Source: a virus
Lineage: Duplodnaviria; Caudoviricetes
Direction: 5' to 3' (one strand)
Length of the DNA stretch: 64,000 nt
IMG/VR virus record: IMGVR_UViG_3300032782_000002
The notes under the pieces were generated by a model, which was given only the letters and a program-made list of their open reading frames with translations, made no database searches and was not told the DNA's origin. The translations under genes and the position numbers were made by a program. Positions within the stretch are counted from its first letter, which is position 1; each line of letters begins with the position of its first letter. This document shows positions 192 through 44,619 of the stretch, piece by piece.

Positions 192-1529
192 CTACACGTT
201 GCGTACTTCCATCTGAACGCCTGCCGGTTGGACCGCGAGCGCCGCGCTGGCTTGCGCCATCACGTAGAAGTCGTACGCGCCTGCTGGCAAGGCAGCAGGC
301 GCATCCCCACCAGCCCCGTACATGACGTTGAGCGGGTAGTTGATGGCCGTGTTGGCCGGCACTGTGGGGTGTGTCGCCGCGAAGGCGTAATCGGGGGTGG
401 TCGGCGCGGCGCTTCCAGTAGGCACTGCCGCCACGCCCATGATCATCGTGCGCGATGTTCCGGTCGCGTTCGTCCAGATGGCCGTGATGGACACGGCTGT
501 CTTGGACGTGCTGACGGTGAAGTTGGTGACCAGCGGCAGTGCTGCCCAGTTCGGGCTCGCAGGGATTGCGCCGAACGGCCCCTGATCATCAGCCCACGCG
601 CTCGTGCGCGCGGCCGCGAGTTGATCGAGTGCGGCGGCGACCTGCGCCGGTGCGGGCGACCAGTTGCCTGGCGTCGATGGTGTGTACCCGACACCCTGGA
701 ACGCACCGGGATCGAGTGGGCCTGCGAGATCGGTGTACGTGAGCGTGCCGCCGGAGCCCTGCGGCGTCTCGACCTCGCTGCCCGAGCTGACGAACGACTC
801 CCAGGTCCCGCCGTTCGACGTGGCGATGGCGTTGCCGTGGATGGAGCTGTTCTCACGCCCGTTGGTCTGCCCCGTGGCCGCCCCCGCGAACTCGATGACG
901 GCGTGGGTGCCGTCACCGATCCCACCGGTCACGAGGTTCACCCAGCAGTACGAGCCCGCCCCGGCCTTCACGAAGCGGCCGGCGCCCGCCATGTTCAGGA
1001 CCGCGAACTGGTCGATGGTGAGGTTGAACTCCATGCCGGCCGTCAGCGTGACGACCGCGCCCGACGACGCCTCGCCGAGCACGTTGAGCCAGCCGGTGAA
1101 CGTGAGGACGCCGCCGGTGAAGTGGACGCCGTCCGCGAGCGTCAGCCGGGCGCCGCCCGTCGCCGAAGCGTAGCTGCTGGTGCCGGTGAACGTCACGTTG
1201 TCGACGTCGTAAGTCCCGGCGGGGATGACGACAGGCGAGGTGATCGAGTCGTCGATCAGGATGATCTTGGGGCCTTGCACCGTCGCGAGTACGGCGTAGA
1301 GCGCGGGCCAGTCGGTGTAGACGTTGTCCCCTGCGACGCCGCCGGGCCGATAGACGAACGCATACGGCTGGGTCGCCGCGTCGTGCGCCGCCAGCTCGTC
1401 GAGTGCCGCGCCAACATCGTCGGGCGCCGATGCCCAGTTGCCTGGAGTACCCGGTTCGTAGTTGATGTCGTCCGCATCGAGCGCGATCGGCCCGCGGCCA
1501 CCACCAATCTGAACGCTGCGCTTGGCCAT
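192..1529 (-). CDS. Fibre/spike-like structural protein (paralogue of 1533-2798)
   Basis: Gly/Thr/Ala beta-rich; two copies of Y.P.TPGNW...P..V.AALD.LAA, resembling phage fibre trimer motifs. Confidence 0.6.
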   Translation of the reverse strand: MAKRSVQIGGGRGPIALDADDINYEPGTPGNWASAPDDVGAALDELAAHDAATQPYAFVYRPGGVAGDNVYTDWPALYAVLATVQGPKIILIDDSITSPVVIPAGTYDVDNVTFTGTSSYASATGGARLTLADGVHFTGGVLTFTGWLNVLGEASSGAVVTLTAGMEFNLTIDQFAVLNMAGAGRFVKAGAGSYCWVNLVTGGIGDGTHAVIEFAGAATGQTNGRENSSIHGNAIATSNGGTWESFVSSGSEVETPQGSGGTLTYTDLAGPLDPGAFQGVGYTPSTPGNWSPAPAQVAAALDQLAAARTSAWADDQGPFGAIPASPNWAALPLVTNFTVSTSKTAVSITAIWTNATGTSRTMIMGVAAVPTGSAAPTTPDYAFAATHPTVPANTAINYPLNVMYGAGGDAPAALPAGAYDFYVMAQASAALAVQPAGVQMEVRNV

Positions 1530-1532
1530 GGG

Positions 1533-2798
1533 TTAGCCGAGGTCGAGAATCGCCCAGTTGATCGCCTGCGCCGCGATCGTGAACGTCGAGCCTCCGCCTC
1601 CGGCGAACACCAGCGAGTAGGCCACGGGCGAGTCGCCCGAGTCGTCGATCGCGGAGATGGTCCCGCCGAACTTGCCCGTGCTGTCCGGCTGGCAGTAGAT
1701 CGGTACTCCGATCGTGTTGCCGTTCTCCTGCAGCGTCACGCTGACGGCTGCGCTGGCCTCGCCGTTGCACGTACCACGGAACGACGCGCTCACGAACGTC
1801 GCCTTGGCTCCTGTGCCGGGCGTGTAATTCGTAGCCGACAGCGTCTGCGGCGTCGGCTGCGTGACGATTCCGCCCGCGTTCGTCTTGTTGGTGTTGTTCT
1901 TGGCGGCGAGCGCGTCGAGGGCGTCGCCGACGTCGGTCGGTGCCGTGACCCAGTCGGTTGGCTCGCCCGGATCGTAGCCGACTCTGTAGGCGTCGTCCGC
2001 GAACGCGACGGTGACGTCTCCGGGCTGCGTGTGGACGTTGCTGCTGGCGTCGTGCCTGATCTGCGTGCCGCCCGAGAAGGCCGCGTCGGTTGCCGACGCG
2101 GCGATCGTCGTGCCGTCGTAGGCCTGCACGAACATGTTGCCCCCGGTGTTGCCGAGGAGCGTCGTGTGCGTGCCGTCGCCGATCAGGCTGGAGTTGCTCA
2201 CGACCTCGACGAAGCCGCCCGTGTCGGCTTTCGCGAATGGGCCTGTCGACGTGCTCGCCAGGCTCGTGCTGTACAGATAGATGTTCGCCTCGGTGTTCGA
2301 GGGCGTCTCGATGCACGGGGCGCTGCCGGCAAACGTCACGTCGAGGCTCGAAAACCAGATCGTGGTCTGCGGGCTGATGCTCACGCCGTCGGCGAGCTGC
2401 AACGCCGCGCCGCCGCTCGCCGTGTTGAAGTTGGGGGCGCCCTCGAAGTGCCAGTCCGAGAGAGCGTAGGATCCGCCACCCGTCTTCGGAGGCACTACGG
2501 CCGGCGATGTAATGCTGTCGTCGACCACGACACGCACACCCCCCGCGATGGCGACGGCCGCCGCGTACAATGCGTTGAAGTCCGTGTAGACGTTGCCGCC
2601 TGCGACGCCGCCGGGCTGGTAGACGACCGAGTAGGTCTGCCCGCCGCCGCCCTTGGCCGCGAGCTGGTCGAGCGCTCGCCCGACGTCTTCGGGCGGGGGC
2701 GACCAGTTGCCCGGTGTCTCGGGCTCGTAGCTGACATCGTCGGCGTCGATCTCCAGGTAGCCCCGTCCGCTACCGACGTAGATGCCTCTGGGCCGCAT
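1533..2798 (-). CDS. Fibre/spike-like structural protein
   Basis: Shares DADD.Y.P.TPGNW..DVG.ALD.LAA and VY.PGGVAG.NVYTD..ALYA...DDSITSP with 192-1529; start 2798 chosen because TACCAT lies 7 nt upstream. Confidence 0.6.
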   Translation of the reverse strand: MRPRGIYVGSGRGYLEIDADDVSYEPETPGNWSPPPEDVGRALDQLAAKGGGGQTYSVVYQPGGVAGGNVYTDFNALYAAAVAIAGGVRVVVDDSITSPAVVPPKTGGGSYALSDWHFEGAPNFNTASGGAALQLADGVSISPQTTIWFSSLDVTFAGSAPCIETPSNTEANIYLYSTSLASTSTGPFAKADTGGFVEVVSNSSLIGDGTHTTLLGNTGGNMFVQAYDGTTIAASATDAAFSGGTQIRHDASSNVHTQPGDVTVAFADDAYRVGYDPGEPTDWVTAPTDVGDALDALAAKNNTNKTNAGGIVTQPTPQTLSATNYTPGTGAKATFVSASFRGTCNGEASAAVSVTLQENGNTIGVPIYCQPDSTGKFGGTISAIDDSGDSPVAYSLVFAGGGGSTFTIAAQAINWAILDLG

Positions 2799-2852
2799 GG
2801 TGACCATGGTACTCGGCCGCGCTCGCCATGGCCACGATCGTGGCTTGACAGG

Positions 2853-3505: not shown

Positions 3506-3517
3506 GAGCCGCCTCGG

Positions 3518-4354: not shown

Positions 4355-4363
4355 CGCGCCAGT

Positions 4364-6604
4364 CTACTCGATCTCGTACAGCTCGCGCAGCTCTCGACTG
4401 CCCTCGGCCTCGGGGGTTGTCCTACCCGGCACGAAGGGCGCGCTCTCGACACCTCCGAGATCGCGGACGATGAGGCGCGACATGGGCCCACCGCGCTGCA
4501 GCTTGCGCTCACGCTTCGGGAAGGGATCGAAGTTGACGAGGGTCGTGTGATCCTGCCAGGTGCCGTAGGTCCCGGCGCGGATCTCGCCGGCCTTGAAGCG
4601 GAAGCCGACCAGACCGCACGAGGGACAGCCCACCTCGGGCACGCCGGGGAAGTCGGTGCCGCACCGGCAGCGGCTCATGCCCACGAGCGACGCCTTGAGC
4701 GCGAAGAACCGACGCGCGACGACCGGCACAGTCATCGTGAAGTCCTTGCGATCCCACGTCTCCCAGGCGCGCAGCATGGACGGCGCGGCGGCGAGCAGCT
4801 CCGAGCGTCCGAGGCCGCGGGCGCGCGCCTTGTCCATGTCGAGGCTGAAGAACAGCCCCGGCCGGACGAAGAGGGCCCCGGACGGCTCGACGTCGTGCGT
4901 CCAGCCGCCCAGGCCCTGCCGCTCCTCGTGCAAGCCGAGATTGCGCGCGGCATAGATGCCGTCGGTGGACACGGTGAGCACGTCGCGTCCGTGCCGGAAG
5001 AGCACCCCGAGGACGACGGCGCGCGTATGGGCGGTCATGTTGCCGGCCCAGATGTAGCTCTGGAACTTGTGGGACCCGACGCCCTGCGAGAGCTTGCCGC
5101 CGCAAGCGTTCATGCCGTTCTTGAGCACCTTGCCGGCGGCGTCCTTGCCGAGGCGCACGCGTTCGTCGTACGCCTCGCGCATGAACCCGAAGGGTCGATG
5201 ACTGCAGTCGGTCTCGTAGATCCACGCTTCGTGTGCATCGACCAGACCGGGCCAGCCGCGCACGGCGGCGAGGAACTCCGAGCGCCACGCCCACCCTCGG
5301 AAGCCCGTACCGAAGACGAGCGATCCGTTCTCGTCACGACACGGCAGGGGCGCCCAGTACATCTGCTCGCGTTCGCTCGCGCGGGCGCTGCGAACCTCGA
5401 AGCGCACACACGCGAGCGTCGCGCGCTCGATCGCACGGGCCAGCCCACGACCCTTGACGTGGCGCCACCGCCCACACCGCAGACACGGCATGTCCTGCAG
5501 CGCTGCGGGGTAAGCCGCCGTGATGTCGAAGCCGTGCGCGGGTCGATCGAAGCGGCCGATGATCGCCTGCTCGAAGCGGCCGCCGAAGTCGGCGCGCATG
5601 ACGGCATCCCGCAAGTCGGAATCGAGCGACTCCATGCGCGGCCCCATGAAGCGCTGCACGCCGTGCCGCTTGAGCATCGCCGTCGCGCTCGCGCCCGATC
5701 CGTCGTAGCGCGTCAGCTGCAGCCCCAGCCTGGTATGCGCGTCCACCACCTGCCGCATCATCCGAGCCAGCAGAGCACACTCCAGCTGGCAGTACCGCTC
5801 GATCTCGGGCGCCGGCAGGGACGCGAACTCGGGGCGCCGCTTCTTCATCGCGGCGATGACGTCGCGCTCCTCGGGCGTGCCGATGCCGAACGCGGTCAGG
5901 GCGTCGACGAAGCTCGTCTGGAAGAACCGCCACGCATCCCAGACCCGTGCGGTTCTACCGTCCTGACCGACCGTGAAGGTGCCGCGCAGAAAGTCGTAGT
6001 GGCGCGGCCCGATGCGCAGACTGCGGGTGAAGCCGCGCACCGATCGCGACCGGCACTTGGGGCAACGCCGGATCGTGGCGAGCGTCCAGCGATGTGCGCA
6101 GCTCTTGCAGACGTAGCCCTTGCGCATGTCGGGGTGCGCGAGGCCGTAGCGATCCTCGATGGCGAGCCCCTCGACGATCTTGGTCGCGTCGTAGCTGAAG
6201 CTGAAGCCGACCTTGAGCGTCGCGCGCGGAATGGACAGCAGCGTCTCGACGCACTGATCGTGGGTCAGCCCCGCCGCGTTGCGGGCTTCGGCGACCAGAC
6301 GGCCACGCTCGTCGACCGCGCACAGATACGTGTAGACGTGGCGGCCATCGGGCGTGTCGTGCCCCTCGCCGTCGACACCAACGATGTAGCGCGCGGCCTG
6401 CCGGTTCGGGCGGTCGGCGTCGTACCGCTTGCGCGAGCGCAGCCGGCGCTTGCTGGGGTGAGCGCTCGCCGGGCGGTGGCAGTGGGCGCACGGATCTCCC
6501 TTGGGCGCGTGCCATAGGCGCTCGCGCGCCTTGCGATGACGGCAAGCCGGGGCGCCGCAGCGCGTGCACGGATCGCCCTTGGCGGCGTGCTCGATCTTGG
6601 GCAC
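4364..6604 (-). CDS. polB: Family B DNA polymerase (protein-primed/piPolB-like) with extra Cys/His zinc-finger modules
   Basis: ExoI GVDGEG, ExoII FSYD, ExoIII YCQLE, DFGGRFE, motif A FDITAAYP, motif B KNGMNACGGK, motif C VSTDGIY. Confidence 0.85.
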   Translation of the reverse strand: MPKIEHAAKGDPCTRCGAPACRHRKARERLWHAPKGDPCAHCHRPASAHPSKRRLRSRKRYDADRPNRQAARYIVGVDGEGHDTPDGRHVYTYLCAVDERGRLVAEARNAAGLTHDQCVETLLSIPRATLKVGFSFSYDATKIVEGLAIEDRYGLAHPDMRKGYVCKSCAHRWTLATIRRCPKCRSRSVRGFTRSLRIGPRHYDFLRGTFTVGQDGRTARVWDAWRFFQTSFVDALTAFGIGTPEERDVIAAMKKRRPEFASLPAPEIERYCQLECALLARMMRQVVDAHTRLGLQLTRYDGSGASATAMLKRHGVQRFMGPRMESLDSDLRDAVMRADFGGRFEQAIIGRFDRPAHGFDITAAYPAALQDMPCLRCGRWRHVKGRGLARAIERATLACVRFEVRSARASEREQMYWAPLPCRDENGSLVFGTGFRGWAWRSEFLAAVRGWPGLVDAHEAWIYETDCSHRPFGFMREAYDERVRLGKDAAGKVLKNGMNACGGKLSQGVGSHKFQSYIWAGNMTAHTRAVVLGVLFRHGRDVLTVSTDGIYAARNLGLHEERQGLGGWTHDVEPSGALFVRPGLFFSLDMDKARARGLGRSELLAAAPSMLRAWETWDRKDFTMTVPVVARRFFALKASLVGMSRCRCGTDFPGVPEVGCPSCGLVGFRFKAGEIRAGTYGTWQDHTTLVNFDPFPKRERKLQRGGPMSRLIVRDLGGVESAPFVPGRTTPEAEGSRELRELYEIE

Positions 6605-6985
6605 TCAGTTTCTCGCGTTCATGTAGCGATCGAAACGCTTGCGATCGTACAGGTTGATGTACGCAGGGGGCATGTGGGCCTGGCGTGCGATGTCGTGTGC
6701 GAGCACCTCGATGAGCGCGTAGGCGCGGCACCGGCATTCGGTGGTGTCCTGCGGATGCCCGAGCAGCCGGATGACGTGCATGGCTCGCGGGACGGCCGAT
6801 GCGAGCATCTTGGTGATCGTGCGCGTCGCCTGCGCGACATCCTGCCCGGCGACATGCGGGCGCGCGATGTGCGAGGCGACGATGTCCGCCACGGCCTGCG
6901 CCCAGCAGGGTTCGAGATCACGCCGCGTAGTGCGACGCGGCTTCTTGGTGCGCTTGGACTTGATGTTTTTCTTCGCTGCCGGCAT
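6605..6985 (-). CDS. Hypothetical protein directly upstream of polB
   Basis: 126 aa ORF abutting the polB start, Lys/Arg-rich N-terminus. Confidence 0.6.
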   Translation of the reverse strand: MPAAKKNIKSKRTKKPRRTTRRDLEPCWAQAVADIVASHIARPHVAGQDVAQATRTITKMLASAVPRAMHVIRLLGHPQDTTECRCRAYALIEVLAHDIARQAHMPPAYINLYDRKRFDRYMNARN

Positions 6986-6992
6986 GCCCTTC

Positions 6993-7421
6993 TCACAGCA
7001 TCTGGGGTGAGAACCACTCGTCGCGCGCGGCGCGGGTTGTGAAGCCCAGCTCCTCGGCGCGCGCCAGGAACGCGAGCCACGCCGGATCGTTGTTGTCGAT
7101 CATGGCGACGAGCACCTTCCAGTCGGCGCGCAGCTTGCCGTGCAGCCCGTCGGCGGCCGCGTAGCGCGCCTGGCGGAACCAGCGCGTGCGCCAACCCTTC
7201 TTGGCCCTGCGGCTGCGCGCGCGCTTGTTCTTGCGGCGCGTCTCCCAGCCCTTGATCGCAGCCTGCTGGCGGATCTTGGCGAGACGGCGGGCCTCGCGCT
7301 CGCGCGCTAGAGCTTTGCGCCTGCGGGTGTCCCATCCCTTGAGGGCTGCCTGGACGCGTACGGGATCCTTCGCACGCGGGCGGCGCGGCGTCTTCTTCCT
7401 CTTGTCGACCCCTCGCGCCAC
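6993..7421 (-). CDS. Arg/Lys-rich protein with three KGW.TR repeats (probably DNA-binding)
   Basis: KGWDTRR, KGWETRR, KGWRTRW. Confidence 0.6.
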   Translation of the reverse strand: MARGVDKRKKTPRRPRAKDPVRVQAALKGWDTRRRKALAREREARRLAKIRQQAAIKGWETRRKNKRARSRRAKKGWRTRWFRQARYAAADGLHGKLRADWKVLVAMIDNNDPAWLAFLARAEELGFTTRAARDEWFSPQML

Positions 7422-7470
7422 GGTCTGCCCACCCTACCGCCGAGGTCGGGGCTGCTCAAGATGAATCAGC

Positions 7471-7499
7471 TTGAATAGCGCGACGCAGCTGGCTAGCAT
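7471..7499 (+). promoter_or_regulatory. Sigma70-type promoter
   Basis: TTGAAT-N17-TAGCAT, 9 nt before ATG 7509. Confidence 0.6.
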
Positions 7500-7508
7500 C
7501 ACCGCTCG

Positions 7509-7754
7509 ATGACGCTGCGTCAGCTCGCACGCAAGCACCTTGCGCCGGGGCTCGCCGACAACCCGAAGCTCGTGCTCGTGCTGGCTGCGCGCTGCGACGT
7601 GAGCCCCAACACCATCCGGCGGTACTTGCTCACCGCCGAGCCGATGCAGCCGGCGTCCATTCGACGCATCGAGCGCACCCTGGCGAACGACGATCCGGAG
7701 CTGCGCGCCGCGCTGCCGATCGACAGCTGGCTCGCGGCGGTCACGCACCGCTAG
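7509..7754 (+). CDS. Small HTH-like regulator, divergent from the polB operon
   Basis: LAARCDVSPNTIRRYL resembles a helix-turn-helix; has its own promoter. Confidence 0.55.
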   Translation: MTLRQLARKHLAPGLADNPKLVLVLAARCDVSPNTIRRYLLTAEPMQPASIRRIERTLANDDPELRAALPIDSWLAAVTHR

Positions 7755-8146
7755 CGGCGCTTGCGGCGGCGCTTGTAATTGCCGAGCATCGACTTGCCGT
7801 GCGACGCGGCCTCACGGATGGTCCCGAACGGACCGGGCACGCCCGTCATGCCGGGGACCTCGACGTAGTAGCCGTTCTTGTGCTCGTAGACGCGGATCTC
7901 GCGACCGCGCGCGTATGCCGTCGCCACTAGGGCGTCGCCGAACCGAGAGCGCCGCGACATGCGCGTCTCGGCGTGGAGCAGTCCACGGCTCTGCAGCTCG
8001 TAGGCGGCGCGCTTGAGCGTCTTGGGATCGGGGGCGTCCGGCTGCGCGTGACCGCCGCGCGTGAGCTTGCCGATGTACGCGTCCGCCGCGTAGACGGCGT
8101 AGCCGCCACCGCGAAGGCGCTCGAAGCGAAGGCCGCGCAGCGCCAT
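7751..8146 (-). CDS. Hypothetical basic protein, paralogue of 3971-4354
   Basis: ATG overlaps upstream TGA; shared GREIRVYE domain. Confidence 0.6.
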   Translation of the reverse strand: MALRGLRFERLRGGGYAVYAADAYIGKLTRGGHAQPDAPDPKTLKRAAYELQSRGLLHAETRMSRRSRFGDALVATAYARGREIRVYEHKNGYYVEVPGMTGVPGPFGTIREAASHGKSMLGNYKRRRKRR

Positions 8147-9072
8147 CAGTGCCTCTCGCGCAAGCCGGGGAACCAGCGCTCGACCGCACGCCGTACGCGC
8201 GCGGAGTCCTTGTCGCGGATCAGGTTGATGGACCTGCCGCGCGAGTCGTAGATGACGGCCGTCCAGACGCGGTAGTCCGGCTCGTAGGTCATCTTGAAGT
8301 GGTGCGCCTTGCGGGCGCGCGCGTTGCCGTAGCGGCGACCGGCGATGCCGAGCTTCATGTCGCCGCGCGTGGCCTTCTGGGCTTCGTGGACGAGCGGTCC
8401 GCCGTGGAGCCGCGCGACGATGCGCTCGGCGCGCGCGGCGCGGCGTTCGTGGGCTGCCAGCTCGGCGCGCCACTGCTTGAGCAACGCACCCTTGGCCTTG
8501 TGCTTGACGATCGCCTCGCGGATCCCCTGCGCGCCACGCCGCTCCCAGTAGGCGTACTGCCTGTAGCTCTCCGCGACCTTGGCCGGCTCGCCCTTGTAGA
8601 GCGGAAAGTCGCGGCTCGAACGGGCCTTGCGATTGCTCTCCTGCAGGCGCGCCTCCAGCTCCTCGCGGCGCTCGCGCGGCGTCTTGCGACGAGGCGGCTT
8701 GGCGGCTTTGACCCAGCGGCCCTCCACGCGCTTGTGGAGCGCGTTCGGCTTGCGCGTGAGCACGCACCGCGGGAGCCGCTTGGCCTGCCCGACCGGCTTG
8801 AGCATGTAGAGGTACGTGTACTCGACGTAGCACTTGCCCGACGCTTCCGAGAGCCGCTGTTCGTCATCCGAGGACCACTGCCGCACACGCGCGCGCTGGT
8901 CGTAGGCGACCCAGGCGCGCGGCCCGAGTGCCTCGTCGCCCCGGTACGGCGGCAGGATGCGCAGGATGACGCCGGGCGCTCCGTAGTCGTTGCGCACGAG
9001 CGTACCGACCCGAAAGCGGCCGCCGCTGCCGCCGAACCCCTTGACGTCGTATGCCTTGCGCGCCTTCGCCAT
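8146..9072 (-). CDS. Hypothetical basic multi-module protein
   Basis: 308 aa ORF with GAGG RBS, coupled to neighbours. Confidence 0.6.
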   Translation of the reverse strand: MAKARKAYDVKGFGGSGGRFRVGTLVRNDYGAPGVILRILPPYRGDEALGPRAWVAYDQRARVRQWSSDDEQRLSEASGKCYVEYTYLYMLKPVGQAKRLPRCVLTRKPNALHKRVEGRWVKAAKPPRRKTPRERREELEARLQESNRKARSSRDFPLYKGEPAKVAESYRQYAYWERRGAQGIREAIVKHKAKGALLKQWRAELAAHERRAARAERIVARLHGGPLVHEAQKATRGDMKLGIAGRRYGNARARKAHHFKMTYEPDYRVWTAVIYDSRGRSINLIRDKDSARVRRAVERWFPGLRERH

Positions 9073-9081
9073 CGCGACCTC

Positions 9082-9414: not shown

Positions 9415-9416
9415 GG

Positions 9417-9899: not shown

Positions 9900-9965
9900 C
9901 CCGCTCATTGCACAGCAGATGCTACCACCCGCACTTGCAGCGGCCAACCACCACGCACGCATCGT

Positions 9966-9984
9966 TTGATTAGATCCCAATCAA
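9966..9984. promoter_or_regulatory. Palindromic AT box TTGATT-N7-AATCAA
   Basis: Perfect 6-bp arms; same family as the 2853/3956 boxes. Confidence 0.6.
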
Positions 9985-27730: not shown

Positions 27731-27763
27731 TGGCAGCTACCTCTGCCCTGGAACGTACCGCGA

Positions 27764-36928: not shown

Positions 36929-36933
36929 GGTCC

Positions 36934-37422: not shown

Positions 37423-40400
37423 GTGGCGATCGTCGGCGGCATCATCGTCGCTGGCGCGATCGGCACGCTGCAGGACACCGTCGCGCAGGCGTCCCTCGGC
37501 GCCATCGTGGCCGCCACAGTCCCGTCCGTTCCGGATCTGCCGCCCGCTCAGCTGCTCACAGGCGGCGTCTACGCGCTCAACGGCGCAACGAAGGAGGGGC
37601 GTGCCTTCACGTCCGGGCCTGGCGCCATCGGCGCGGGCGCCGGCACCCAGGGCACATCTCTCAAGTGGTACTTCATCAACGCGGCGGCCGCGGGCTCGTC
37701 GCACATGGCCCTCACCACCGGGCCCGCGCCCGCGACGGCGACGCTGGCGAGCACCGGGTGGACGGTCGGCACCACGGCGAGCGGCAACTACTCGGAGTTT
37801 CTCTACAACACCAAGCGAGCCGCTGCGACATTCGGCTCGACGGTGCTGCCTAACGCGGCTCCGACCACCAACGACTGCGCGCGCACGCAGAGCCCGTACA
37901 CCGGCTACTTCGCGGCCGGCACGTGGTCGATCAAGGTCTCGTTCATCGCCGGTGTCGCGGCGACCGGATCCGGCAACCTGCGCGTGCGCGTGTGGCGCAG
38001 CTCGAACCCCACCGGCTCCGGCGCCGTCGAACTCACGACGGCCACGCTTGCGCTCTCGGGTGTCAGCAACCTGACCACGAGCACCGCACAGAACACGAGC
38101 GTGACGTGGAACCCGGGGCCCATCACGCTCAACAACGAGTACCTGTTCTTCGAGATGGCGTGGAACATCACTGGCGCCAGCGCCAGTTCCACAGCCTCTG
38201 TCGAGTGGCGTACGGACGCGACCAACTCGATCATCACAGCACCGGCCTTCACCTCGACATCCGTAGGCGGCGCGATCGTCACCGGCGGCACCGAGCTGCC
38301 GACGATGTCGCAGAACCTGATCGGCATCACGCAGGCCGCCGACATCCTCTACCCGGTCCCGCTGCCGCCGACGCAGTACATCCAGCCTGGTGCCAACCTG
38401 CCCATCAAGGGCGGCGTGAACGTGACCGGTGCCCTCGGCACCCTGCTCGCGGGCTCGATGGCGGCGTTGCCGACCTACGTGGGCAACCTGGCCGTGGGCG
38501 AGGCCACGACGTCGGCGACCTTCGGAAGCAAGGTCAAGCCTGGGCGCGCGATCGTCGTCATCGTCGCCAACCAGGGAAGCTCGGGCGTGACCTTCACCGG
38601 CGTGACGGACACGGAAGGCAACACCTACGTGCCGGTCGGCAACGGCATCTACGACAACGTCACGAACAACACGCAGATGCAGTTCTACGTGGCGTTCAAC
38701 GTTGCCGGAGATCCGGTGACGCCAAACACGGTGTCGTTCACGACCTCGGGATCGACGTCCGCGCTAGCCATCTACGCCTTCGAGGTCTCCGGTATCGCGG
38801 CGTTCGACAACGGGGCGGGCGCCACAGGTTCGTCGGCGACAGCCGCCACCGGCGCATTCCAGGTGCACCACGGACAGTCGATCATCTTCGCTGCGACGAT
38901 CAACTCGGGTAGCGGGTCTGCCGCGACCGCTCCCTTCAAGTTGATCCAGAAGACCGCGAACTTCGCCGACATTCTGGAGTACGCCACGCTGGGAGGGCCG
39001 GGAGCGATCAACGCGCAAGCGGCGCTCAGCGGCTCGCAGACGTGGGGCATCGTCGCGGCGTCCTTCTACGCCCCATCGGACACGTCTTCGATCAACGCGC
39101 GTGTTGCGGCACCCGCCGTGTACACCGATCTGCCGGTACCTCTGGAGCAGATCTTCGCCGGAGTCGTACCCCCACCGCCCGTGCCGGTACCGTTCCAGAC
39201 GCTGTATTACGGGCTGCCGCCGCCGGTGCCCGACTTCCCGATCCTGCTGTCGCAGTTCCTGATGTCGGGTGAGGCCGAGGGCATCCTCGACTCGACGACC
39301 ATCGGTGTCGGCTCGGGCGTCTACCCGCTCGGCGGTTTGAACATCACGGGGCAGCTCGGCACGCTCTACGTGCAGGCATCCACCACACCCGCCATCGCCT
39401 TCAAGCAGGGCACGTCGGTCGAGCAGCCGGCCGGTAGCATCGCGTCCCCCGCCACGACAACCGCGTTCAGCTCGTCCAACGTGGCGGGCAACGCCATCGT
39501 CGTCTTCGTGCTCTGCGGCATGACGTATCCGCACAACGGCTTCCCCGGCACGACGGTCACGGACACGCAAGGCAACACGTACAACCTCGTGCAGCAGTGG
39601 GATGGCACCGCGAGCGCCAGCTTCGGCGCCACGTCCATGGGTGTGTACGTGGCGTTCGGCGTCAAAGGCGGCTCGGGCAATCAGGTCCTCTGCAACTTCA
39701 CGACGACCAACGTGCACGAGATGTCCGCCGTCGCCGTGGAGTACTCCGGCATCAACGCGTACGACGCCGGAGGCGCCGACGACACGAGCACGTTCGGCGC
39801 GCAGCTCGCCACGGTGGACACCGGAAGTTTCACCACCAACCAGGTGGGCGTCATTCTCGCTGCAGCGTCAAGCAGCGCCGCGAGCGTCAGCTCGGCCGGT
39901 GCAGGCTACGCGCTTCGACTGAGCACATCGATCGTCGCGACAGGCGCGGAGGACAAGGTCAACGCGGCGGCAGGGACCAACGACGCGACGCTCGTGTTCT
40001 CCGGTACCGGCAACTGGGGCATCATCGCCGCGAACTTCTACTGGTCCGGCGGTTCGGTCCCCACACCGTTCAACGCGCTCCGGCCCGCACCGAGCGACGC
40101 GGCGCTGCTGCCGATGCCGATGGCGCTCGACAACGGCGAGTCCCTCGGGATCACCGGAGCGTACGGCGCACAGATCACCACCGGGTTCGGCGGTGCCGGT
40201 CCGCCTCCCACAGCGGTCATCCTCAACAACATTCCGCTGCCGCCCACCGAGCTAGATCTGCCTCCCTTCCAGGCGCTCGACAACGGCGAGAGCTACGGGA
40301 TCACCGGCGCCTTCGGAGCCCAGATCACGACGGGCTTCGGTCAGCCCGCGCAGGTCGCGGTCATCTACGACAACCTTCTGCTGCCGCCGACGTTCCCGTT

Positions 40401-43400
40401 CGAGACGCCGCCACCCCAGGCGCTGTACGCCGGGCGTCCGTTCACGGTGGTCCAGACACCAACGCTGTTCGTCCAGGGCTCGTCGGCCATCTCGTTCTCG
40501 ACCGTCCCGACGCTCGATGCAGCAGCGTTCCCCAACGCACAGACCGCGGGCGACACGATCGTCGTGTTCGTGGGCACGAACGTCAAGACCGACATCGTCA
40601 CGGGCGTGACCGACACGGCCGGCAACCACTACGTACGTGGCGGCGTGCAGTTCGGCTCGCTCAACAACTTCACCGTCACGATGTACTACGCCACCAACAT
40701 CAAGGCGGCGAACGCCGGCACAAACGTCGTCACGGCGAGCTTCAGCCCGAACGCCGTGCACCCCGAGATCCTCGTCGCCGAGTACAGCGGCATCGGGAGC
40801 CTGTACACGACCGTCGGCGGTGAATCAGCCATCGCCACGCTGACGCTGACAGGTGCCTCGAATACGCCAGGCCAGATCTTTATCGGGAGCGCCAACTCCG
40901 CGTCCGGTTTGATCCCGCAGCCGCCCGCAAACCAGCGGGTGCTCGATGGGTACTCGGACGCGATCTACGATCTCATGGCGCCATCGCCAGGGACGTACAC
41001 CATCACCGAGTTCGGCTCGAACGCCGTCGGTCTGCTGGGCATCTTCACGCCCCAGTACAGCGCGAGCCTGAATACCACCGCGATCGGTGGCTTCAATTCC
41101 ATCGCGCTCGGAGCCAACGTCATCCAGCCGCCATCCATGCTGGCTCCGGCGCTGCTACCGCCCGATACGCGGCTGCCGCCACTCGACTATGTGCTCGCGG
41201 GTGTAGCGCCGACGACGACACAAGCCGTCATCCTGCAAGCGACGCAAGCTCCCGCCGCCGCCGACTTGCCGGCTTGGGAGCGGCTGACCAGCGGTCTCTA
41301 TCAGGACGCGAGCGTCATCGGCGCCATCGCACGCGGCGCGGGACAAGCAGCCCAGCCGCCTGTCGTCATCGTGGGCCCACCCGACGCACGCTCTCCGTGG
41401 CCGACCACGGTGGACGAACTGCTCGTCGGGTACGGCCAGGCCGCGCAACCGCCCGTCATCGTCAAGCCTTACCTGCTGCCTCCCAGTGCTGATCTGCCGC
41501 CGCTCGATTCCGTGCTCAAGGGCTACGGGCAAGCCGCTCAACCGCCCGTGCTCGTCGAGGCGTTCTTGCTACCGCCCGACACCCTGCTGCCTCCGTGGGA
41601 TCGACTCACGAGCGGCATCTACCAGGATGCGTCGGTGATCGGAGCGATTGCTCGCGGCGTCGGGCAAGCGGCGCAGCCACCCGTCATCATCGCGCAGCCC
41701 CTGGTAGCGCCCGAGACGCAGCTGCCGCCGCGCGACCAGCTCGGATCGGGGCAGGCGTTCATCGGCACGTGGGACGCCTTCACGGGCGGCTTCGGTCAGG
41801 CAGCGCAACCGCCGGTGATCGTCAAGCCGTTCATCCTGCCACCCGAGACGCAGCTGCCGCCCCACGACTACGTGCTGACCGGATACGGACAGGCCGCGCA
41901 GCCGCCGTTCTTCGTGCAACCGGTGCTGGTGCCGCCGTTCGCCGATCTGCCTCCCTGGGATCGGTTGACGTCCGGGATCTATCAGGACGCCTCCGTCGTC
42001 GGCGCCATTGCTCGTGGAGCCGGCCAGGCTGGTCAACCACCCGTCATCGTGCGGGCCGTCTTGCTGCCTCCGGACACACCGCTGCCGCCGTGGGAGCGCC
42101 TCACGAGCGGTGTGTACCAGGACGCCTCCGTGATCGGTGCCATCGCACGCGGCGCCGGGTATCCCGCGCAGCCCCCGGCCATCATCGTCGGCCCTGTCGA
42201 CCCACGGTCGCCGTGGCCGACCACTGTCGATGAGCTGCTCACGGGCTATGGCCAGGCAGCGCAACCTCCGGTCATCGTCAAACCCGATCTGCTGCCGCCG
42301 GCCACGGATCTGCCGCCGGTGGACACGATTCTCGCGGGCTACGGGCAGGCCGCCGAGGCGCCGTTCTTCGTACGCCCCTTCCTGCTGCCGCCCGAGACGC
42401 TCTTGCCCCCGAAGGACTACATCTTCGCGGGCGCAGGCCAAGCCGCTCAGCCTCCCGTCATCGTCTACGCGCGCACGATCCCGCCCGAGACCCAGCTGCC
42501 GCCGAACGACTACGTACTCAAGGGCTATGGACAGCCCGCACAACCGCCCGTCATCATGGTCGGGCCGATCGATCCCCGTGCGCCCTGGCCCACGACGACC
42601 GACGAGCTGCTCGTCGGGTACGGACAGCCCGCGCAGCCACCGGTCATCCTCGTCGGACCGCCGGACGCACGCTCGCCCTGGCCGACAACCGTGGACGAGC
42701 TGCTGACGGGGTACGGACAAGCCGCCCAGCCGCCAGCCATCATCAAGCCGTTCTTGCTCCCACCCGACACTCCGCTACCAGAGTGGCAGCGCCTCACCGC
42801 GGGAGCGATGCTCGATGCCGGCGTCATTGGCGCGATCTCGCGCGGAGCGGGCCAAGCCGCGCAGCCGCCTGTCATCGCGAAGCAGGATCTGCTCCCGCCG
42901 TTCACCACGCTGCCGGAGTGGCAGAGGCTGACTGCAGGGGCGCTGCTCGACAGCGCCGTCATCGGAGCCATCAGTCGCGGCTCCGGTCAGGCCGCACAGC
43001 CTCCGGTGATCGTGAAGCCGGATCTGCTGCCGCCCAGCGCCGATCTGCCCCCGCTCGACTACTCCATCGCGGGCTTCGGTCAGGCAGCGCAACCGCCCGT
43101 CATCATCTACGCGCGCGTCGTACCGCCGGACGCCGCGCTGCCGCCCACCGACTACGTCATCAAGGGGTTCGGCCAGGCGGCTCAGCCCCCCGTGATTGTC
43201 GTAGGCCCGGTCGACCCGAGATCGCCTTGGCCGACGACCGTCGATGAACTGCTGACCGGATACGGTCAGGCGGCTCAGCCTCCGGTCATCGTCTTCGCGC
43301 GTCTCATCCCACCGGAAGCGCCGCTGCCGCCGCCGCAGCAGATCGAGCCCGGCGCGGGCTTCCCGCCGCAGCCGCCGAACATCACCTTCCCGGTCATCGT

Positions 43401-44619
43401 GCCCCCGTACACGCTGCTGCCCGAGTGGCAGCGGCTGACGCCCGGAGCAATGCTGGATACTGGGGTCATCGGGGCCATCTCGCGCGGTGCTGGAGCGGCC
43501 GCACAGCCTCCGGTGATCGTCAAGGCGTTCGTGCTGCCGCCGACCACCGTGCTGCCGGAGTGGCAACGCCTGATGAACGGCGAGCAGCTGGAGGATGCCG
43601 GCGTCATCGGAGCCATCACCCGCGGGTCCGGCTTCCCGCCGCAGCCGCCCGTCATCATCACCGGACCGATCGATCCGCGCCCGCCCTGGCCGACCACGGT
43701 GGACGAGATCCTCACCGGCTACGGTCAGCCCGCGCAGCCACCGATCATCATCGTAGGGCCGCCCGATCCGCGGTCGCCTTGGCCCACGACGACCGACGAG
43801 CTGCTCACAGGCTACGGGCAAGCAGCGCAGCCCCCTGTGATCGTCAAGGCGTTCCTCCTGCCACCAGCCGCCGAGCTGCCGCCGCCGTACTTGCTCATCC
43901 CGGGCGCCAACCGGCCTGTCGAGGCGCAGATCATCGAGGCCACGCTGCTGCCGCCCGACGCGGAGCTGCCGCCCTCGCAGTGGCTGACAGCGGGCTCGCT
44001 GCTGAACCACGCGACCGTCGATGCCCTGACGGGCGGATTCGGTCAGCCCGCGCAGCCGCCGGTCATCCTCGCCTCGAAGCTGCCGTTCGTCGCCGAGCTG
44101 CCCCCGCGGCTCGTCGTGCTCGGCATCGGCCCGCTCGTCAAGCCGACCGCGAAGATCATCCTGGCGTTCGCGCTGCCGCCGCTGGCGGAGCTGCCGCCCT
44201 TCGACTCGATCATCCCCGGCGGCGGCGTGCTGCCGCCGGTGGTCACCAAGCGCCGTCGCCTGAGCGGCCAGGAAGACGTCTTCGTCTACGACGAGCGACC
44301 GATCATCCTGCAGCTGGCCGTGCAGGCCGTCATGGGCACGCTGGCCGCGCCCTCGACGCTGCCGACCGCTTCCCCCGCGACACCGCAGACCGCCGACCGG
44401 ATCCTCGTTGCGGTGGGCAACGATGCCATCGTGCGCGCGCCGGCTGCCGGGTGGCTGCGCACGGCATCGGGCGGCTCGCTGGGCCTGCGCGCCTCCATCG
44501 CGGGCGACGACGGTCTGTCCTACGCCGTGCTCAACCTCGGCACGATCGTCGGCCAGATCCCGCGCCGCGTCGTGGCGCACGAGATCATCGGCCGCACTCC
44601 TAAGAAGTCGGGCGCGTGA
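37423..44619 (+). CDS. Giant (2398 aa) surface/fibre-like protein: beta-sandwich modules plus Pro-rich repeat stalk
   Basis: GAGGAGG RBS; three IVV.V...VTDT.GN.Y modules; about 27 G.GQAAQPP repeats. Confidence 0.75.
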   Translation: MAIVGGIIVAGAIGTLQDTVAQASLGAIVAATVPSVPDLPPAQLLTGGVYALNGATKEGRAFTSGPGAIGAGAGTQGTSLKWYFINAAAAGSSHMALTTGPAPATATLASTGWTVGTTASGNYSEFLYNTKRAAATFGSTVLPNAAPTTNDCARTQSPYTGYFAAGTWSIKVSFIAGVAATGSGNLRVRVWRSSNPTGSGAVELTTATLALSGVSNLTTSTAQNTSVTWNPGPITLNNEYLFFEMAWNITGASASSTASVEWRTDATNSIITAPAFTSTSVGGAIVTGGTELPTMSQNLIGITQAADILYPVPLPPTQYIQPGANLPIKGGVNVTGALGTLLAGSMAALPTYVGNLAVGEATTSATFGSKVKPGRAIVVIVANQGSSGVTFTGVTDTEGNTYVPVGNGIYDNVTNNTQMQFYVAFNVAGDPVTPNTVSFTTSGSTSALAIYAFEVSGIAAFDNGAGATGSSATAATGAFQVHHGQSIIFAATINSGSGSAATAPFKLIQKTANFADILEYATLGGPGAINAQAALSGSQTWGIVAASFYAPSDTSSINARVAAPAVYTDLPVPLEQIFAGVVPPPPVPVPFQTLYYGLPPPVPDFPILLSQFLMSGEAEGILDSTTIGVGSGVYPLGGLNITGQLGTLYVQASTTPAIAFKQGTSVEQPAGSIASPATTTAFSSSNVAGNAIVVFVLCGMTYPHNGFPGTTVTDTQGNTYNLVQQWDGTASASFGATSMGVYVAFGVKGGSGNQVLCNFTTTNVHEMSAVAVEYSGINAYDAGGADDTSTFGAQLATVDTGSFTTNQVGVILAAASSSAASVSSAGAGYALRLSTSIVATGAEDKVNAAAGTNDATLVFSGTGNWGIIAANFYWSGGSVPTPFNALRPAPSDAALLPMPMALDNGESLGITGAYGAQITTGFGGAGPPPTAVILNNIPLPPTELDLPPFQALDNGESYGITGAFGAQITTGFGQPAQVAVIYDNLLLPPTFPFETPPPQALYAGRPFTVVQTPTLFVQGSSAISFSTVPTLDAAAFPNAQTAGDTIVVFVGTNVKTDIVTGVTDTAGNHYVRGGVQFGSLNNFTVTMYYATNIKAANAGTNVVTASFSPNAVHPEILVAEYSGIGSLYTTVGGESAIATLTLTGASNTPGQIFIGSANSASGLIPQPPANQRVLDGYSDAIYDLMAPSPGTYTITEFGSNAVGLLGIFTPQYSASLNTTAIGGFNSIALGANVIQPPSMLAPALLPPDTRLPPLDYVLAGVAPTTTQAVILQATQAPAAADLPAWERLTSGLYQDASVIGAIARGAGQAAQPPVVIVGPPDARSPWPTTVDELLVGYGQAAQPPVIVKPYLLPPSADLPPLDSVLKGYGQAAQPPVLVEAFLLPPDTLLPPWDRLTSGIYQDASVIGAIARGVGQAAQPPVIIAQPLVAPETQLPPRDQLGSGQAFIGTWDAFTGGFGQAAQPPVIVKPFILPPETQLPPHDYVLTGYGQAAQPPFFVQPVLVPPFADLPPWDRLTSGIYQDASVVGAIARGAGQAGQPPVIVRAVLLPPDTPLPPWERLTSGVYQDASVIGAIARGAGYPAQPPAIIVGPVDPRSPWPTTVDELLTGYGQAAQPPVIVKPDLLPPATDLPPVDTILAGYGQAAEAPFFVRPFLLPPETLLPPKDYIFAGAGQAAQPPVIVYARTIPPETQLPPNDYVLKGYGQPAQPPVIMVGPIDPRAPWPTTTDELLVGYGQPAQPPVILVGPPDARSPWPTTVDELLTGYGQAAQPPAIIKPFLLPPDTPLPEWQRLTAGAMLDAGVIGAISRGAGQAAQPPVIAKQDLLPPFTTLPEWQRLTAGALLDSAVIGAISRGSGQAAQPPVIVKPDLLPPSADLPPLDYSIAGFGQAAQPPVIIYARVVPPDAALPPTDYVIKGFGQAAQPPVIVVGPVDPRSPWPTTVDELLTGYGQAAQPPVIVFARLIPPEAPLPPPQQIEPGAGFPPQPPNITFPVIVPPYTLLPEWQRLTPGAMLDTGVIGAISRGAGAAAQPPVIVKAFVLPPTTVLPEWQRLMNGEQLEDAGVIGAITRGSGFPPQPPVIITGPIDPRPPWPTTVDEILTGYGQPAQPPIIIVGPPDPRSPWPTTTDELLTGYGQAAQPPVIVKAFLLPPAAELPPPYLLIPGANRPVEAQIIEATLLPPDAELPPSQWLTAGSLLNHATVDALTGGFGQPAQPPVILASKLPFVAELPPRLVVLGIGPLVKPTAKIILAFALPPLAELPPFDSIIPGGGVLPPVVTKRRRLSGQEDVFVYDERPIILQLAVQAVMGTLAAPSTLPTASPATPQTADRILVAVGNDAIVRAPAAGWLRTASGGSLGLRASIAGDDGLSYAVLNLGTIVGQIPRRVVAHEIIGRTPKKSGA
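41335..44220 (+). repeat. About 27 tandem coding repeats of 31 or about 45 aa
   Basis: G[YFA]GQ[AP]AQPPVI core with three subtypes. Confidence 0.9.

What the first reader, a model, noticed from the sequence alone, without database searches (positions are those of the whole stretch)
192..44619. Candidate undescribed lineage of large tailless, membrane-containing bacterial virus
Seen: no terminase, portal, tail or HK97-like motifs in 64 kb. Also seen: over 20 small or TM-anchored proteins, a short all-beta protein with its own promoter and terminator (30605-31189), a nearby Cys protease, protamine-like proteins, fibre proteins and a pPolB/piPolB-type polymerase. Known: this combination (jelly-roll capsid, internal membrane, basic core proteins, maturation protease, PolB) typifies Varidnaviria-type viruses, and the classical bacterial ones such as PRD1 and PM2 are far smaller than this element. 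Inference: a large single-jelly-roll or otherwise novel virus of a high-GC host. A packaging ATPase is not visible and may lie outside the window.
Basis: partly seen in the sequence, partly recalled or inferred. Interest (0 to 1): 0.85.

Follow-up and report, generated by a model that had tools for sequence, protein, structure and literature searches.

The report
Giant virus-like element, jelly-roll core genes
This is the left 64 kb of a 221-kb virus-like genome from an undescribed family, probably of myxobacteria; it has a tectivirus-type protein-primed DNA polymerase and a conserved block of jelly-roll, protease and membrane proteins, but 157 kb could not be read, so a tailless virion is plausible and not shown.

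Summary
Pfam and PHROG scans of every predicted protein of about 190 aa or more, bar two of about 210-225 aa, found no terminase, portal, HK97 capsid or tail family. The polymerase (4364-6604) is a protein-primed PolB. Its only phage relatives are actinobacterial Tectiviridae and His1 (phmmer E 1.6e-41).

Its C-terminal 125 aa fold with high confidence as an eight-stranded jelly roll. The top structural matches are capsid proteins of membrane-containing HHIV-2, HCIV-1 and SPV1, but only at Z 7.6-7.8, which is not specific. It is the most conserved of the genes that could be compared, is predicted to self-associate head to tail, and occurs elsewhere as five tandem copies in one chain.

The ORF at 19407-20354 is two tandem jelly rolls, not a canonical double jelly roll. 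A transglutaminase-fold Cys protease and about 15 membrane proteins complete a collinear conserved module.

Relatives lie on 200-240 kb metagenome contigs. The core gene trio also sits in integrase-bearing islands of Myxococcota genomes.

Against the interpretation: no packaging ATPase was found, and the other 157 kb of the genome could not be read. I put tailless at about 0.4 and a divergent tailed jumbo phage at about 0.36.

The parts
1..191 (.). Contig end: GC-rich short-repeat, non-coding stretch
   Evidence: Read directly. The ENA contig also stops about 190 nt past g1. Whether this is a physical terminus is unknown.
192..2807 (-). g1 and g2: adjacent acidic paralogues (445 and 424 aa), beta-rich, each with a twice-repeated P-G-N-W...A-L-D-x-L-A motif; fibre- or spike-like by inference only
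   Evidence: 35% identical to each other. phrog_5596, unknown function, E 7e-13. No Pfam or PDB match.
4364..6604 (-). g7: protein-primed family B DNA polymerase with extra Cys-rich insertions
   Evidence: phrog_11768 E 4.6e-30. tblastn hits only Tectiviridae of Actinobacteria plus His1. phmmer E 1.6e-41 to the Toil polymerase. Shared exonuclease and polymerase motifs.
6605..10541 (-). g8-g15: run of small, very basic proteins (pI 9.7-12), including g12 (308 aa); candidates for terminal protein or DNA-condensing proteins (inference)
   Evidence: pI values. No family hits. g10 (7509-7754) lies on the + strand.
12335..14329 (-). g19: protein carrying an intein with an HNH endonuclease
   Evidence: Intein_splicing E 6e-20. 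The relative's homologue is 349 aa without the intein.
14885..16357 (-). g21: RadA/Sms-like ATPase, the only P-loop protein in the window
   Evidence: AAA_25 and ChlI hits. Walker A scan.
17146..17616 (-). g24: conserved small protein at the edge of the conserved module
   Evidence: 56% identical in contig_24511, in the same order.
18488..19318 (-). g27: membrane protein that travels with g28
   Evidence: TM segment 184-202. The g28-like and g27-like pair is also adjacent in a Myxococcales MAG.
19407..20354 (-). g28: disordered N-terminus plus two tandem jelly-roll domains (about 65-192 and 197-308)
   Evidence: 43 representative homologues. AF2 pLDDT 84. Structure searches.
20987..22357 (-). 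g30: N-terminally anchored, Pro-rich protein; homologues carry a peptidoglycan-binding domain
   Evidence: TM segment 3-21. PG_binding_1 in homologues. Paralogue g32.
24441..27280 (-). g35 and g36: two C-terminally membrane-anchored proteins with Pro-rich stalks
   Evidence: TM segments near the C-terminus. Shared C-terminal region. No family hits.
27293..28333 (-). g37 and g38: N-terminally anchored proteins with beta-rich ectodomains
   Evidence: Sequences. Conserved at 38-49% in contig_24511.
28346..29293 (-). g39: transglutaminase-fold (papain-like) Cys protease; the C-terminal half is the conserved catalytic core
   Evidence: Invariant C205/H239/D251. Weak Transglut_core hits. Always adjacent to the g41 family.
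29360..30526 (+). g40: endonuclease VII/HNH protein with a zinc knuckle, inserted between g39 and g41; likely a homing endonuclease
   Evidence: Endonuclease_7 E 7e-33. Relatives have other genes at this spot.
30605..31189 (-). g41: the most conserved gene among those compared; N-terminal E-I-S-G motif, two helices, a Gly linker and a single jelly-roll domain (68-194)
   Evidence: 41 homologues. AF2 model. Structure searches. Self-association model. Five-domain fused forms.
31288..31830 (-). g42: hydrophobic helical partner with an E-I-S-G motif at residue 131
   Evidence: Motif. Conserved next to the g41 family, including in Myxococcota islands.
32532..33410 (+). g44: GT-A-like glycosyltransferase candidate, not a capsid protein
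34832..35506 (+). g48: membrane-anchored protein carrying E-I-S-G-Q-E-D-V
37423..44619 (+). g53: 2398-aa acidic Pro-rich repeat protein with a C-terminal TM segment and S-G-Q-E-D-V at residue 2281

Best explanation
The window is the left end of a 220,885-bp genome. It belongs to an undescribed family of 200-240 kb virus-like elements whose hosts are probably Myxococcota (shown).

Proposed mechanism, all inferred. The genome carries a tectivirus-type protein-primed PolB close to its end, which would prime or patch linear ends. The 17-32 kb block is the particle-building module. In it, a very conserved single-jelly-roll protein (g41) assembles head to tail into rings or a lattice, and fused five-domain relatives suggest pentamers. 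g41 works with a hydrophobic partner (g42), a two-jelly-roll protein (g28) and a dozen membrane-anchored proteins. A transglutaminase-fold Cys protease (g39) trims these proteins at an E-I-S-G motif.

On this reading the particle is built from jelly-roll and membrane proteins rather than from an HK97 capsid with a tail.
For: Genome size and family: the contig is 220,885 bp, and homologues lie on contigs of 202-240 kb.

pPolB: the only phage relatives are Tectiviridae and His1. E-values are 1e-28 to 1e-35 by tblastn and 1.6e-41 by phmmer, with shared motifs.

g41:
- 70-88% identical in relatives where neighbouring enzymes are 41-54% identical.
- The jelly roll is modelled at pLDDT above 90.
- The top VIA matches are HHIV-2 (Z 7.8, rmsd 7.6, 112 aligned), HCIV-1 (Z 7.6, rmsd 2.8, 109 aligned) and SPV1 (Z 7.6, rmsd 2.9, 114 aligned), followed by other viral capsid jelly rolls.
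- The model of four copies supports self-binding. The score was 0.60 against a best control of 0.00. That mark was reached by 20 of 30 proteins solved as pairs of one chain and by 1 of 23 solved as single chains. The runs agree in at least 87% of contacts, the partner pLDDT is at least 82, and the interface is head to tail.
- Proteins with five tandem g41-type domains exist.

g28: two jelly rolls. Foldseek E values of 1e-4 to 2e-3 link it to two-jelly-roll proteins, including GH172/DUF2961, STIV MCP, PR772 P3 and PBCV-1.

Module conservation: the order g42-g41-g39-g38-g37-...-g32-g31-g30-g29-g28-g27-g24 is collinear in contig_24511.

Protease: the catalytic triad is invariant. The E-I-S-G motif occurs in g41, g42 and g48, S-G-Q-E-D-V occurs in g53, and the motif is conserved at the N-terminus across the g41 family.

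Hallmark genes: no tailed-phage family was found in the window or around homologues. g41 and g39 have no match in 50,697 phage records.

Host: all four GTDB-wide hits are Myxococcota.
Against: All known prokaryotic viruses of this size are tailed (my knowledge), and 157 kb of this genome were never seen.

There is no packaging ATPase in the window.

The jelly-roll matches are below Z 8. They tie with GOLD domains, PHM, nucleoplasmin and discoidin domains, so the fold is shown but a capsid role is not.

g28 does not superpose on double-jelly-roll capsid proteins as a rigid body. Similar small jelly rolls are common in tailed-phage proteins.

The Myxococcota islands carrying the g42-g41-g39 trio have no Walker A protein at all, checked in the roughly 22-kb Polyangium island. 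Apart from an integrase, the island genes scanned in Polyangium and in G002 (L012) have no PHROG hit. The module can therefore exist without any recognisable packaging motor.

The pPolB block (g1-g15) is not found at the corresponding place in the collinear relative, whose contig breaks inside a gene there. pPolB may therefore not be a core gene.
Confidence: 0.4

Rival explanations
1. A very divergent tailed jumbo phage. The head, portal, terminase and tail genes lie in the unseen 157 kb. The jelly-roll, protease and membrane block is an accessory module, for example decoration or fibre proteins, envelope remodelling, lysis or superinfection exclusion. The pPolB is an acquired gene.
For: Size of 221 kb. 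The first-stage notes also report about 38 tRNAs, CRISPR-Cas, a PolA fusion, inteins and homing endonucleases, which is typical huge-phage content. The window is only 29% of the genome. Jelly-roll domains are common in tailed-phage decoration, cement, fibre and baseplate proteins, such as KHP40 cement, 7-7-1 fibres and the R4C baseplate. Atlas neighbours of g28 are Uroviricota clusters. pPolB is absent at the syntenic place in a relative.
Against: No structural family was found in 64 kb or in any neighbourhood list seen. First-stage readers of all six windows noted none, which is weak evidence because they had no tools. Almost no gene is shared with 50,697 phage records. A 194-aa jelly-roll protein as the most conserved gene among those compared would be unusual for an accessory protein.
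Confidence: 0.36
2. Not a virus: a giant linear plasmid-like extrachromosomal element of a myxobacterium. The conserved jelly-roll, protease and membrane operon builds a cell-surface or envelope structure, for example a cross-linked or proteolytically matured appendage.
For: No virion hallmark of any kind was found. A ParA-like ATPase sits in the module of one relative. The operon occurs in chromosomal islands with an integrase but no ATPase. Ena spore-appendage subunits are among the fold matches. The protease weakly resembles the adhesin-processing protease LapG (4u65, E 0.93, not significant). Peptidoglycan-binding domains occur in g30 homologues.
Against: The element has dense, short, co-directional orphan genes, homing endonucleases and inteins. 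The first-stage notes also report a tRNA array and a CRISPR array whose spacers point at related elements, which fit a virus better. No conjugation or plasmid replication genes were seen. The few family hits are phage families.
Confidence: 0.12
3. The left 10.5 kb (g1-g15, with pPolB) is a separate protein-primed mobile element or satellite joined to the end of the large genome, so the tectivirus link says nothing about the large element.
For: The block is missing at the syntenic position in contig_24511. It sits at the very end of the contig. It contains the polymerase, small basic proteins and two fibre-like paralogues, which is a compact self-contained set.
Against: GC content and codon bias are the same as in the rest. 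The ENA assembly (98.7 kb) carries this block, and both the ENA and Logan assemblies match the window where I checked them. The relative's contig simply breaks inside a gene, so absence there is not shown. No capsid or ATPase gene of a tectivirus is present.
Confidence: 0.12

Closest known systems
Actinobacterial Tectiviridae (Rhodococcus phage Toil, Streptomyces phages WheeHeim and Forthebois, Microbacterium phage Badulia)
   Same: The protein-primed PolB is of the same clade: 25-30% identity over about 570 aa, with shared motif variants. The polymerase gene lies near the left end on the minus strand, preceded by small basic ORFs. There are many small membrane proteins.
   Different: The genome is 13 times larger. 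No other Toil or Badulia protein, including the packaging ATPase and the double-jelly-roll coat protein, matches any window protein. Inverted terminal repeats and a terminal protein are not shown.
Viruses with single-jelly-roll capsid proteins and an internal membrane (Sphaerolipoviridae: HHIV-2, HCIV-1, P23-77; Portogloboviridae: SPV1)
   Same: These are the best rigid-body matches of the g41 jelly roll, at Z 7.6-7.8, with P23-77 VP17 at 6.6. The size is similar, at about 190 aa. Membrane-protein genes follow downstream.
   Different: The scores are not specific. There is no adjacent second jelly-roll capsid gene, because g42 is helical. There is no ATPase-small MCP-large MCP block. The genomes of those viruses are 16-31 kb (my knowledge).
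Huge or jumbo tailed phages from metagenomes
   Same: Genome size. By the first-stage notes, also tRNAs, CRISPR-Cas, inteins and nucleotide and glycan-modifying enzymes.
   Different: No terminase, portal, HK97 capsid or tail family was detected in what could be read. pPolB is not known from such phages (my knowledge).
Bacterial transglutaminase-like cysteine proteases (LapG type) and the Cys maturation proteases of adenovirus-like viruses
   Same: g39 has a Cys-His-Asp core. Its putative substrates share a short Gly-containing motif, and one of them is a giant repeat protein.
   Different: Sequence support is weak. Cleavage is not shown. g39 has an extra, possibly inactive N-terminal copy of the domain (first-stage note, not tested).

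Membership tests
Protein-primed family B DNA polymerase (tectivirus clade) | Significant full-length sequence similarity to known pPolBs | tested here: met
   tblastn E 1e-28 to 1e-35 to 14 tectivirus records (16 records matched in all, two of them His1). phmmer E 1.6e-41 to Toil and 1e-38 to Badulia.
Protein-primed family B DNA polymerase (tectivirus clade) | Exonuclease and polymerase motifs in order | tested here: met
   V-D-G-E-G, F-S-F-S-Y-D, D-I-x-A-A-Y-P, K-x-G-M-N-x-C-x-G-K-L and T-D-G align with Toil and Badulia. The 'rewired' motifs are the norm for this clade.
Protein-primed family B DNA polymerase (tectivirus clade) | Terminal protein gene and inverted terminal repeats | not testable with these tools
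   The right end of the contig was not obtainable. g8, g9 and g12 are only candidates.
Varidnaviria, PRD1-adenovirus type (Bamfordvirae) | Vertical double-jelly-roll major capsid protein | tested here: inconclusive
   g28 has two jelly rolls and Foldseek E values of 1.4e-3 to 1.9e-3 to STIV and PR772 MCPs. There is no rigid-body match over both domains. Only two proteins could be folded.
Varidnaviria, PRD1-adenovirus type (Bamfordvirae) | FtsK/HerA (A32-like) packaging ATPase | tested here: not met
   Within the window the only P-loop protein is RadA. The other 157 kb are not testable.
Varidnaviria, PRD1-adenovirus type (Bamfordvirae) | Internal membrane in the virion | not testable with these tools
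   Only the abundance of membrane-protein genes is seen.
Single-jelly-roll, membrane-containing viruses (Sphaerolipoviridae-like) | Two adjacent vertical single-jelly-roll capsid genes next to an ATPase gene | tested here: not met
   g41 is a single gene here. Its neighbour g42 is helical and hydrophobic, and no ATPase is nearby. Tandem g41 paralogues exist in some relatives.
Single-jelly-roll, membrane-containing viruses (Sphaerolipoviridae-like) | Capsid-type jelly-roll fold | tested here: inconclusive
   The top matches are HHIV-2, HCIV-1 and SPV1 at Z 7.6-7.8. Non-viral jelly rolls follow at Z 7.2.
Caudoviricetes (tailed phages) | Terminase large subunit, portal and HK97-fold capsid protein | tested here: inconclusive
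   None was found by Pfam or PHROGs in the 64-kb window. Divergent forms and the remaining 157 kb were not tested.
Transglutaminase-like cysteine protease | Cys-His-Asp triad in the conserved order | tested here: met
   C205, H239 and D251 are invariant in 5 homologues at 36-62% identity.
Transglutaminase-like cysteine protease | Profile match to the family | tested here: inconclusive
   Transglut_core E 0.0095, below cut-off, in 2 of 5 members. LapG E 0.93.

The most novel reading that the evidence does not exclude
A family of 200-240 kb bacterial viruses, probably of Myxococcota, that are not tailed. Their particles are built from a self-assembling single-jelly-roll protein (pentamer-forming, and fused five-fold in one branch), a two-jelly-roll protein and a membrane. 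The proteins are matured by a transglutaminase-fold protease at an E-I-S-G site, and genome ends are replicated by a tectivirus-type protein-primed polymerase. Smaller integrase-bearing islands in myxobacterial chromosomes carry the same core trio, as relatives or satellites. This would be the first giant non-tailed virus lineage of bacteria.
Probability: 0.33. Interest if true: 0.95.

Novelty: new variant of a known kind. Interest (0 to 1): 0.72.

Why it matters
All bacterial viruses above about 100 kb described so far are tailed, as far as I know. Jelly-roll viruses reach large genome sizes only in eukaryotes. A 221-kb bacterial element is therefore a concrete, testable candidate for a giant non-tailed bacterial virus when its only clear viral kinship is a tectivirus-type polymerase, its most conserved gene among those compared is a self-associating jelly-roll protein, and it shows no tailed-phage hallmark in the third of the genome that could be read.

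If it turns out to be tailed, it is still a deep new branch with almost no genes shared with 50,697 known phages. It would also be the first jumbo phage with a protein-primed polymerase, and a first handle on large viruses of myxobacteria. The conserved jelly-roll, protease and hydrophobic-partner trio, with its short shared motif, is a new three-gene module whose function can be tested at the bench.

Tried and rejected
ATTEMPTS TO REACH THE REST OF THE GENOME.
- No whole genome is held.
- The contig is not in IMG/VR, nor in JGI metagenomes when queried with the polymerase.
- The ENA and Logan records give gene lists but no DNA.
- The relatives' records are not searchable as wholes.

WALKING THE RELATIVE contig_24511 TO ITS END. 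Its contig breaks inside a glycosyltransferase gene. It therefore neither confirms nor refutes a shared terminus, and neither confirms nor refutes the presence of pPolB.

g44 (32532-33410) AS A CAPSID CANDIDATE: rejected. It has GT-A-like motifs, a weak match to a pelagiphage ORF next to a glycosyltransferase, and no PDB hit.

SEQUENCE SEARCHES AGAINST SOLVED STRUCTURES. g7, g1, the g44 profile, the g39 profile and the two largest island proteins gave nothing significant.

OTHER SEARCHES.
- The ESM Atlas look-up for g28 gave scores below 0.9 only.
- Toil and Badulia proteomes against the window: only the polymerase matches.
- The island beta protein against the g28 profile: no relation.
- pPolB was not found with this query in the four Myxococcota genomes.
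- Megablast of 25 kb against phages: no match.
- Literature: no paper on giant jelly-roll bacterial viruses or jumbo phages of Myxococcota turned up in two searches. One query timed out.
- No tRNA gene lies in this window.

Full report
WHAT THE WINDOW IS

The DNA is 69% GC throughout. Raw ORF lists are therefore useless. I called 90 genes from the codon-position GC pattern, and the calls agree with those stored for the same contig in public assemblies. Genes run on the minus strand from 192 to 31830, on the plus strand to 44619, and then on the minus strand again.

The contig is 220,885 bp long, and the window is its left end. The ENA copy stops about 190 nt beyond g1, and the first 190 nt are GC-rich short repeats. 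First-stage notes on the other five windows report a PolA fusion, a TIGR-Tas array, about 38 tRNAs and a CRISPR-Cas locus. They report no terminase, portal or tail genes. Those notes are unchecked.

I could not obtain any DNA outside the window.

CHECKING THE OBSERVATION

Pfam and PHROG scans covered all proteins of about 190 aa or more except g68 (226 aa) and g80 (212 aa). They returned only the following:
- a DNA polymerase (g7);
- a RadA-like ATPase (g21);
- two intein-bearing paralogues (g19, g60);
- an endonuclease VII protein (g40);
- an Ig-like domain (g22);
- sugar and methyl transferases.

There is no terminase, portal, capsid or tail family. RadA is the only P-loop protein. About 15 membrane-anchored proteins and 13 very basic ones are present. 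Megablast and tblastn against 50,697 phage records find almost nothing. The g41 promoter was not found by a consensus scan, although a terminator hairpin is visible. g41 is also not beta over its whole length.

THE POLYMERASE

The only phage relatives of g7 are the polymerases of Tectiviridae infecting Rhodococcus, Streptomyces and Microbacterium, plus the archaeal virus His1. The records confirm the Tectiviridae taxonomy. phmmer gives E 1.6e-41.

As in those viruses, the gene lies a few kb from the left end on the minus strand, just downstream of small basic ORFs. No other tectivirus protein matches the window.

It has 41 homologues. The closest are 84-88% identical, on contigs where the neighbouring glycosyltransferase g44 is only about 52% identical. 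Homologues sit on contigs of 202, 213, 232 and 240 kb.

With this alignment AlphaFold gives pLDDT 84.5. Residues 68-194 score above 90 and form an eight-stranded sandwich. Foldseek finds nothing below E 1e-3.

The exhaustive structural alignment puts these matches first:
- HHIV-2, Z 7.8, rmsd 7.6, 112 aligned;
- HCIV-1, Z 7.6, rmsd 2.8, 109 aligned;
- SPV1, Z 7.6, rmsd 2.9, 114 aligned.

Nanovirus, STMV, the STIV turret and P23-77 VP17 and VP16 follow. GOLD, PHM, nucleoplasmin and discoidin domains are interleaved at Z 6-7. The protein therefore folds as a jelly roll, so the stated refutation did not happen. The score level does not prove a capsid role.

A model of four copies supports self-binding. 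The score was 0.60 against a best control of 0.00. That mark was reached by 20 of 30 proteins solved as pairs of one chain and by 1 of 23 solved as single chains. The runs agree in at least 87% of contacts and the partner pLDDT is at least 82. One face (119-160) meets the other face (72-112, 185-189) of the next copy, which is the geometry of rings or lattices.

A search for longer relatives found proteins of about 720 aa with five tandem g41-type domains. They lie on virus-like contigs of 60-101 kb.

THE SECOND CANDIDATE, g28 (19407-20354)

An exhaustive HMMER search found 43 cluster representatives. The model (pLDDT 84) has two tandem jelly rolls.

Foldseek gives 21 hits below E 1e-3, and more just above it, to two-jelly-roll proteins: SIDT1, GH172/DUF2961, PHM and XepA, and, at E 1.4e-3 to 1.9e-3, the STIV, PR772 and PBCV-1 capsid proteins. 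Rigid-body alignment matches only one domain at a time. So g28 is a two-jelly-roll protein but not a demonstrated double-jelly-roll capsid protein.

THE MODULE AND ITS RELATIVES

In the 213-kb relative contig_24511 the genes g42, g41, g39, g38, g37, g34/33, g32, g31, g30, g29, g28, g27 and g24 are collinear at 37-70% identity. g41 is the best conserved.

g39 has an invariant Cys-His-Asp set and weak transglutaminase-core hits. The motif E-I-S-G occurs at the N-terminus of g41, near the C-terminus of g42 and in g48. S-G-Q-E-D-V occurs in g48 and in the 2398-aa g53. The motif position is conserved across the g41 family and in distant g42-like proteins. A shared cleavage site for g39 is the simplest reading, but it is not shown.

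HOST

A scan of one genome per prokaryotic species found the g41 family in four genomes, all Myxococcota. A profile search found it in 4 of 401 sampled genomes of that phylum. In each case a g39-like gene, and where the region is intact a g42-like gene as well, flank it.

In Polyangium sp. 15x6 the trio lies in a roughly 22-kb island of lower GC content next to an integrase, inside host DNA. That island has no Walker A motif in any frame. Apart from the integrase, the island genes scanned there and in G002 (L012) have no PHROG hit. In a Myxococcales MAG a g28-like and a g27-like gene are adjacent in a chromosomal contig.

These islands make Myxococcota the likely hosts. They also show that the core trio can exist without any recognisable packaging motor, which weakens a strict PRD1-like reading.

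WHAT WEAKENS THE POLYMERASE ARGUMENT

I walked contig_24511 to its end. Its homologues of g16-g19 are followed by different small genes, and the contig breaks inside a gene. No pPolB, RadA or g1-g15 homologue is there. pPolB may lie elsewhere in that genome, or it may be a variable terminal gene.

WEIGHING

For a non-tailed, jelly-roll and membrane particle:
- the tectivirus-type polymerase;
- a small, self-associating jelly-roll protein as the most conserved gene among those compared;
- a second jelly-roll protein;
- a protease with a shared motif;
- a long run of membrane proteins;
- no tailed hallmark anywhere I could look.

Against it:
- the strong prior that all large prokaryotic viruses are tailed;
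- 71% of the genome unseen;
- no packaging ATPase;
- non-specific fold scores;
- ATPase-free islands.

My estimates are about 0.40 for the tailless reading, 0.36 for a divergent tailed jumbo phage and 0.12 for a non-viral element. The chance that the pPolB block is a separate rider is 0.12, and it overlaps with the other three.

Whichever reading is right, this is a deep new lineage. The full contig would settle the question in an afternoon of profile and structure searches.

Noticed in passing
window 12335-14329 (-) and 48244-50256 (-): g19 and g60 are paralogues, 39% identical over about 660 aa, and g19 matches Pfam Intein_splicing plus an HNH endonuclease, while g60 was scanned against PHROGs only and matches HNH endonuclease families at the corresponding position. 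The homologue of g19 in contig_24511 is 349 aa and lacks the intein.
   Followed up: partly
window 29360-30526 (+): An endonuclease VII/HNH protein with a zinc knuckle sits on the opposite strand exactly between g39 and g41. One relative has a ParA-like ATPase gene there and another has unrelated small genes. It looks like a homing endonuclease insertion.
   Followed up: partly
P0094-P0098; locus L026 10001-12169: Proteins of about 720 aa consist of five tandem copies of the g41-type jelly-roll domain joined by Ser/Pro-rich linkers. They lie on virus-like contigs of 60-101 kb and look like a single-chain version of a five-membered assembly.
   Followed up: partly
L011 2745-20216 plus L019 1-5300 (Polyangium sp. 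15x6, contig C133, about 87.7-110 kb): A roughly 22-kb lower-GC island starts with a tyrosine integrase. It carries g42-like, g41-like (with a coiled-coil N-terminal part) and g39-like genes, then about ten orphan genes including proteins of 824 and 795 aa. It has no P-loop protein. The same operon order is seen in G383 contig C2 and in L009.
   Followed up: partly
window 32532-33410 (+): g44 has GT-A-like motifs and a weak but full-length match (21% identity, E 9e-11) to gp81 of Pelagibacter phage HTVC027P, which lies next to a glycosyltransferase.
   Followed up: yes
window 192-2807 (-): g1 and g2 each contain two copies of a motif of the form Y-x-P-x-x-P-G-N-W ... D-V-x-x-A-L-D-x-L-A flanking a beta-rich middle part. 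A short stretch matches hypothetical proteins of Leptospira phages.
   Followed up: partly
window 36491-36928 (+) and 36544-36855 (-): Two overlapping ORFs on opposite strands both show coding-like GC3 bias. Public gene calls take the plus-strand one (145 aa). The strand was not settled here.
   Followed up: no
L012 9590-11487 (G002 contig C693): Two g41-like genes lie in tandem and are 85% identical over their jelly-roll parts, with His/Tyr/Pro-rich low-complexity N-termini. P0093 shows the same duplication on a 200-kb metagenome contig.
   Followed up: no
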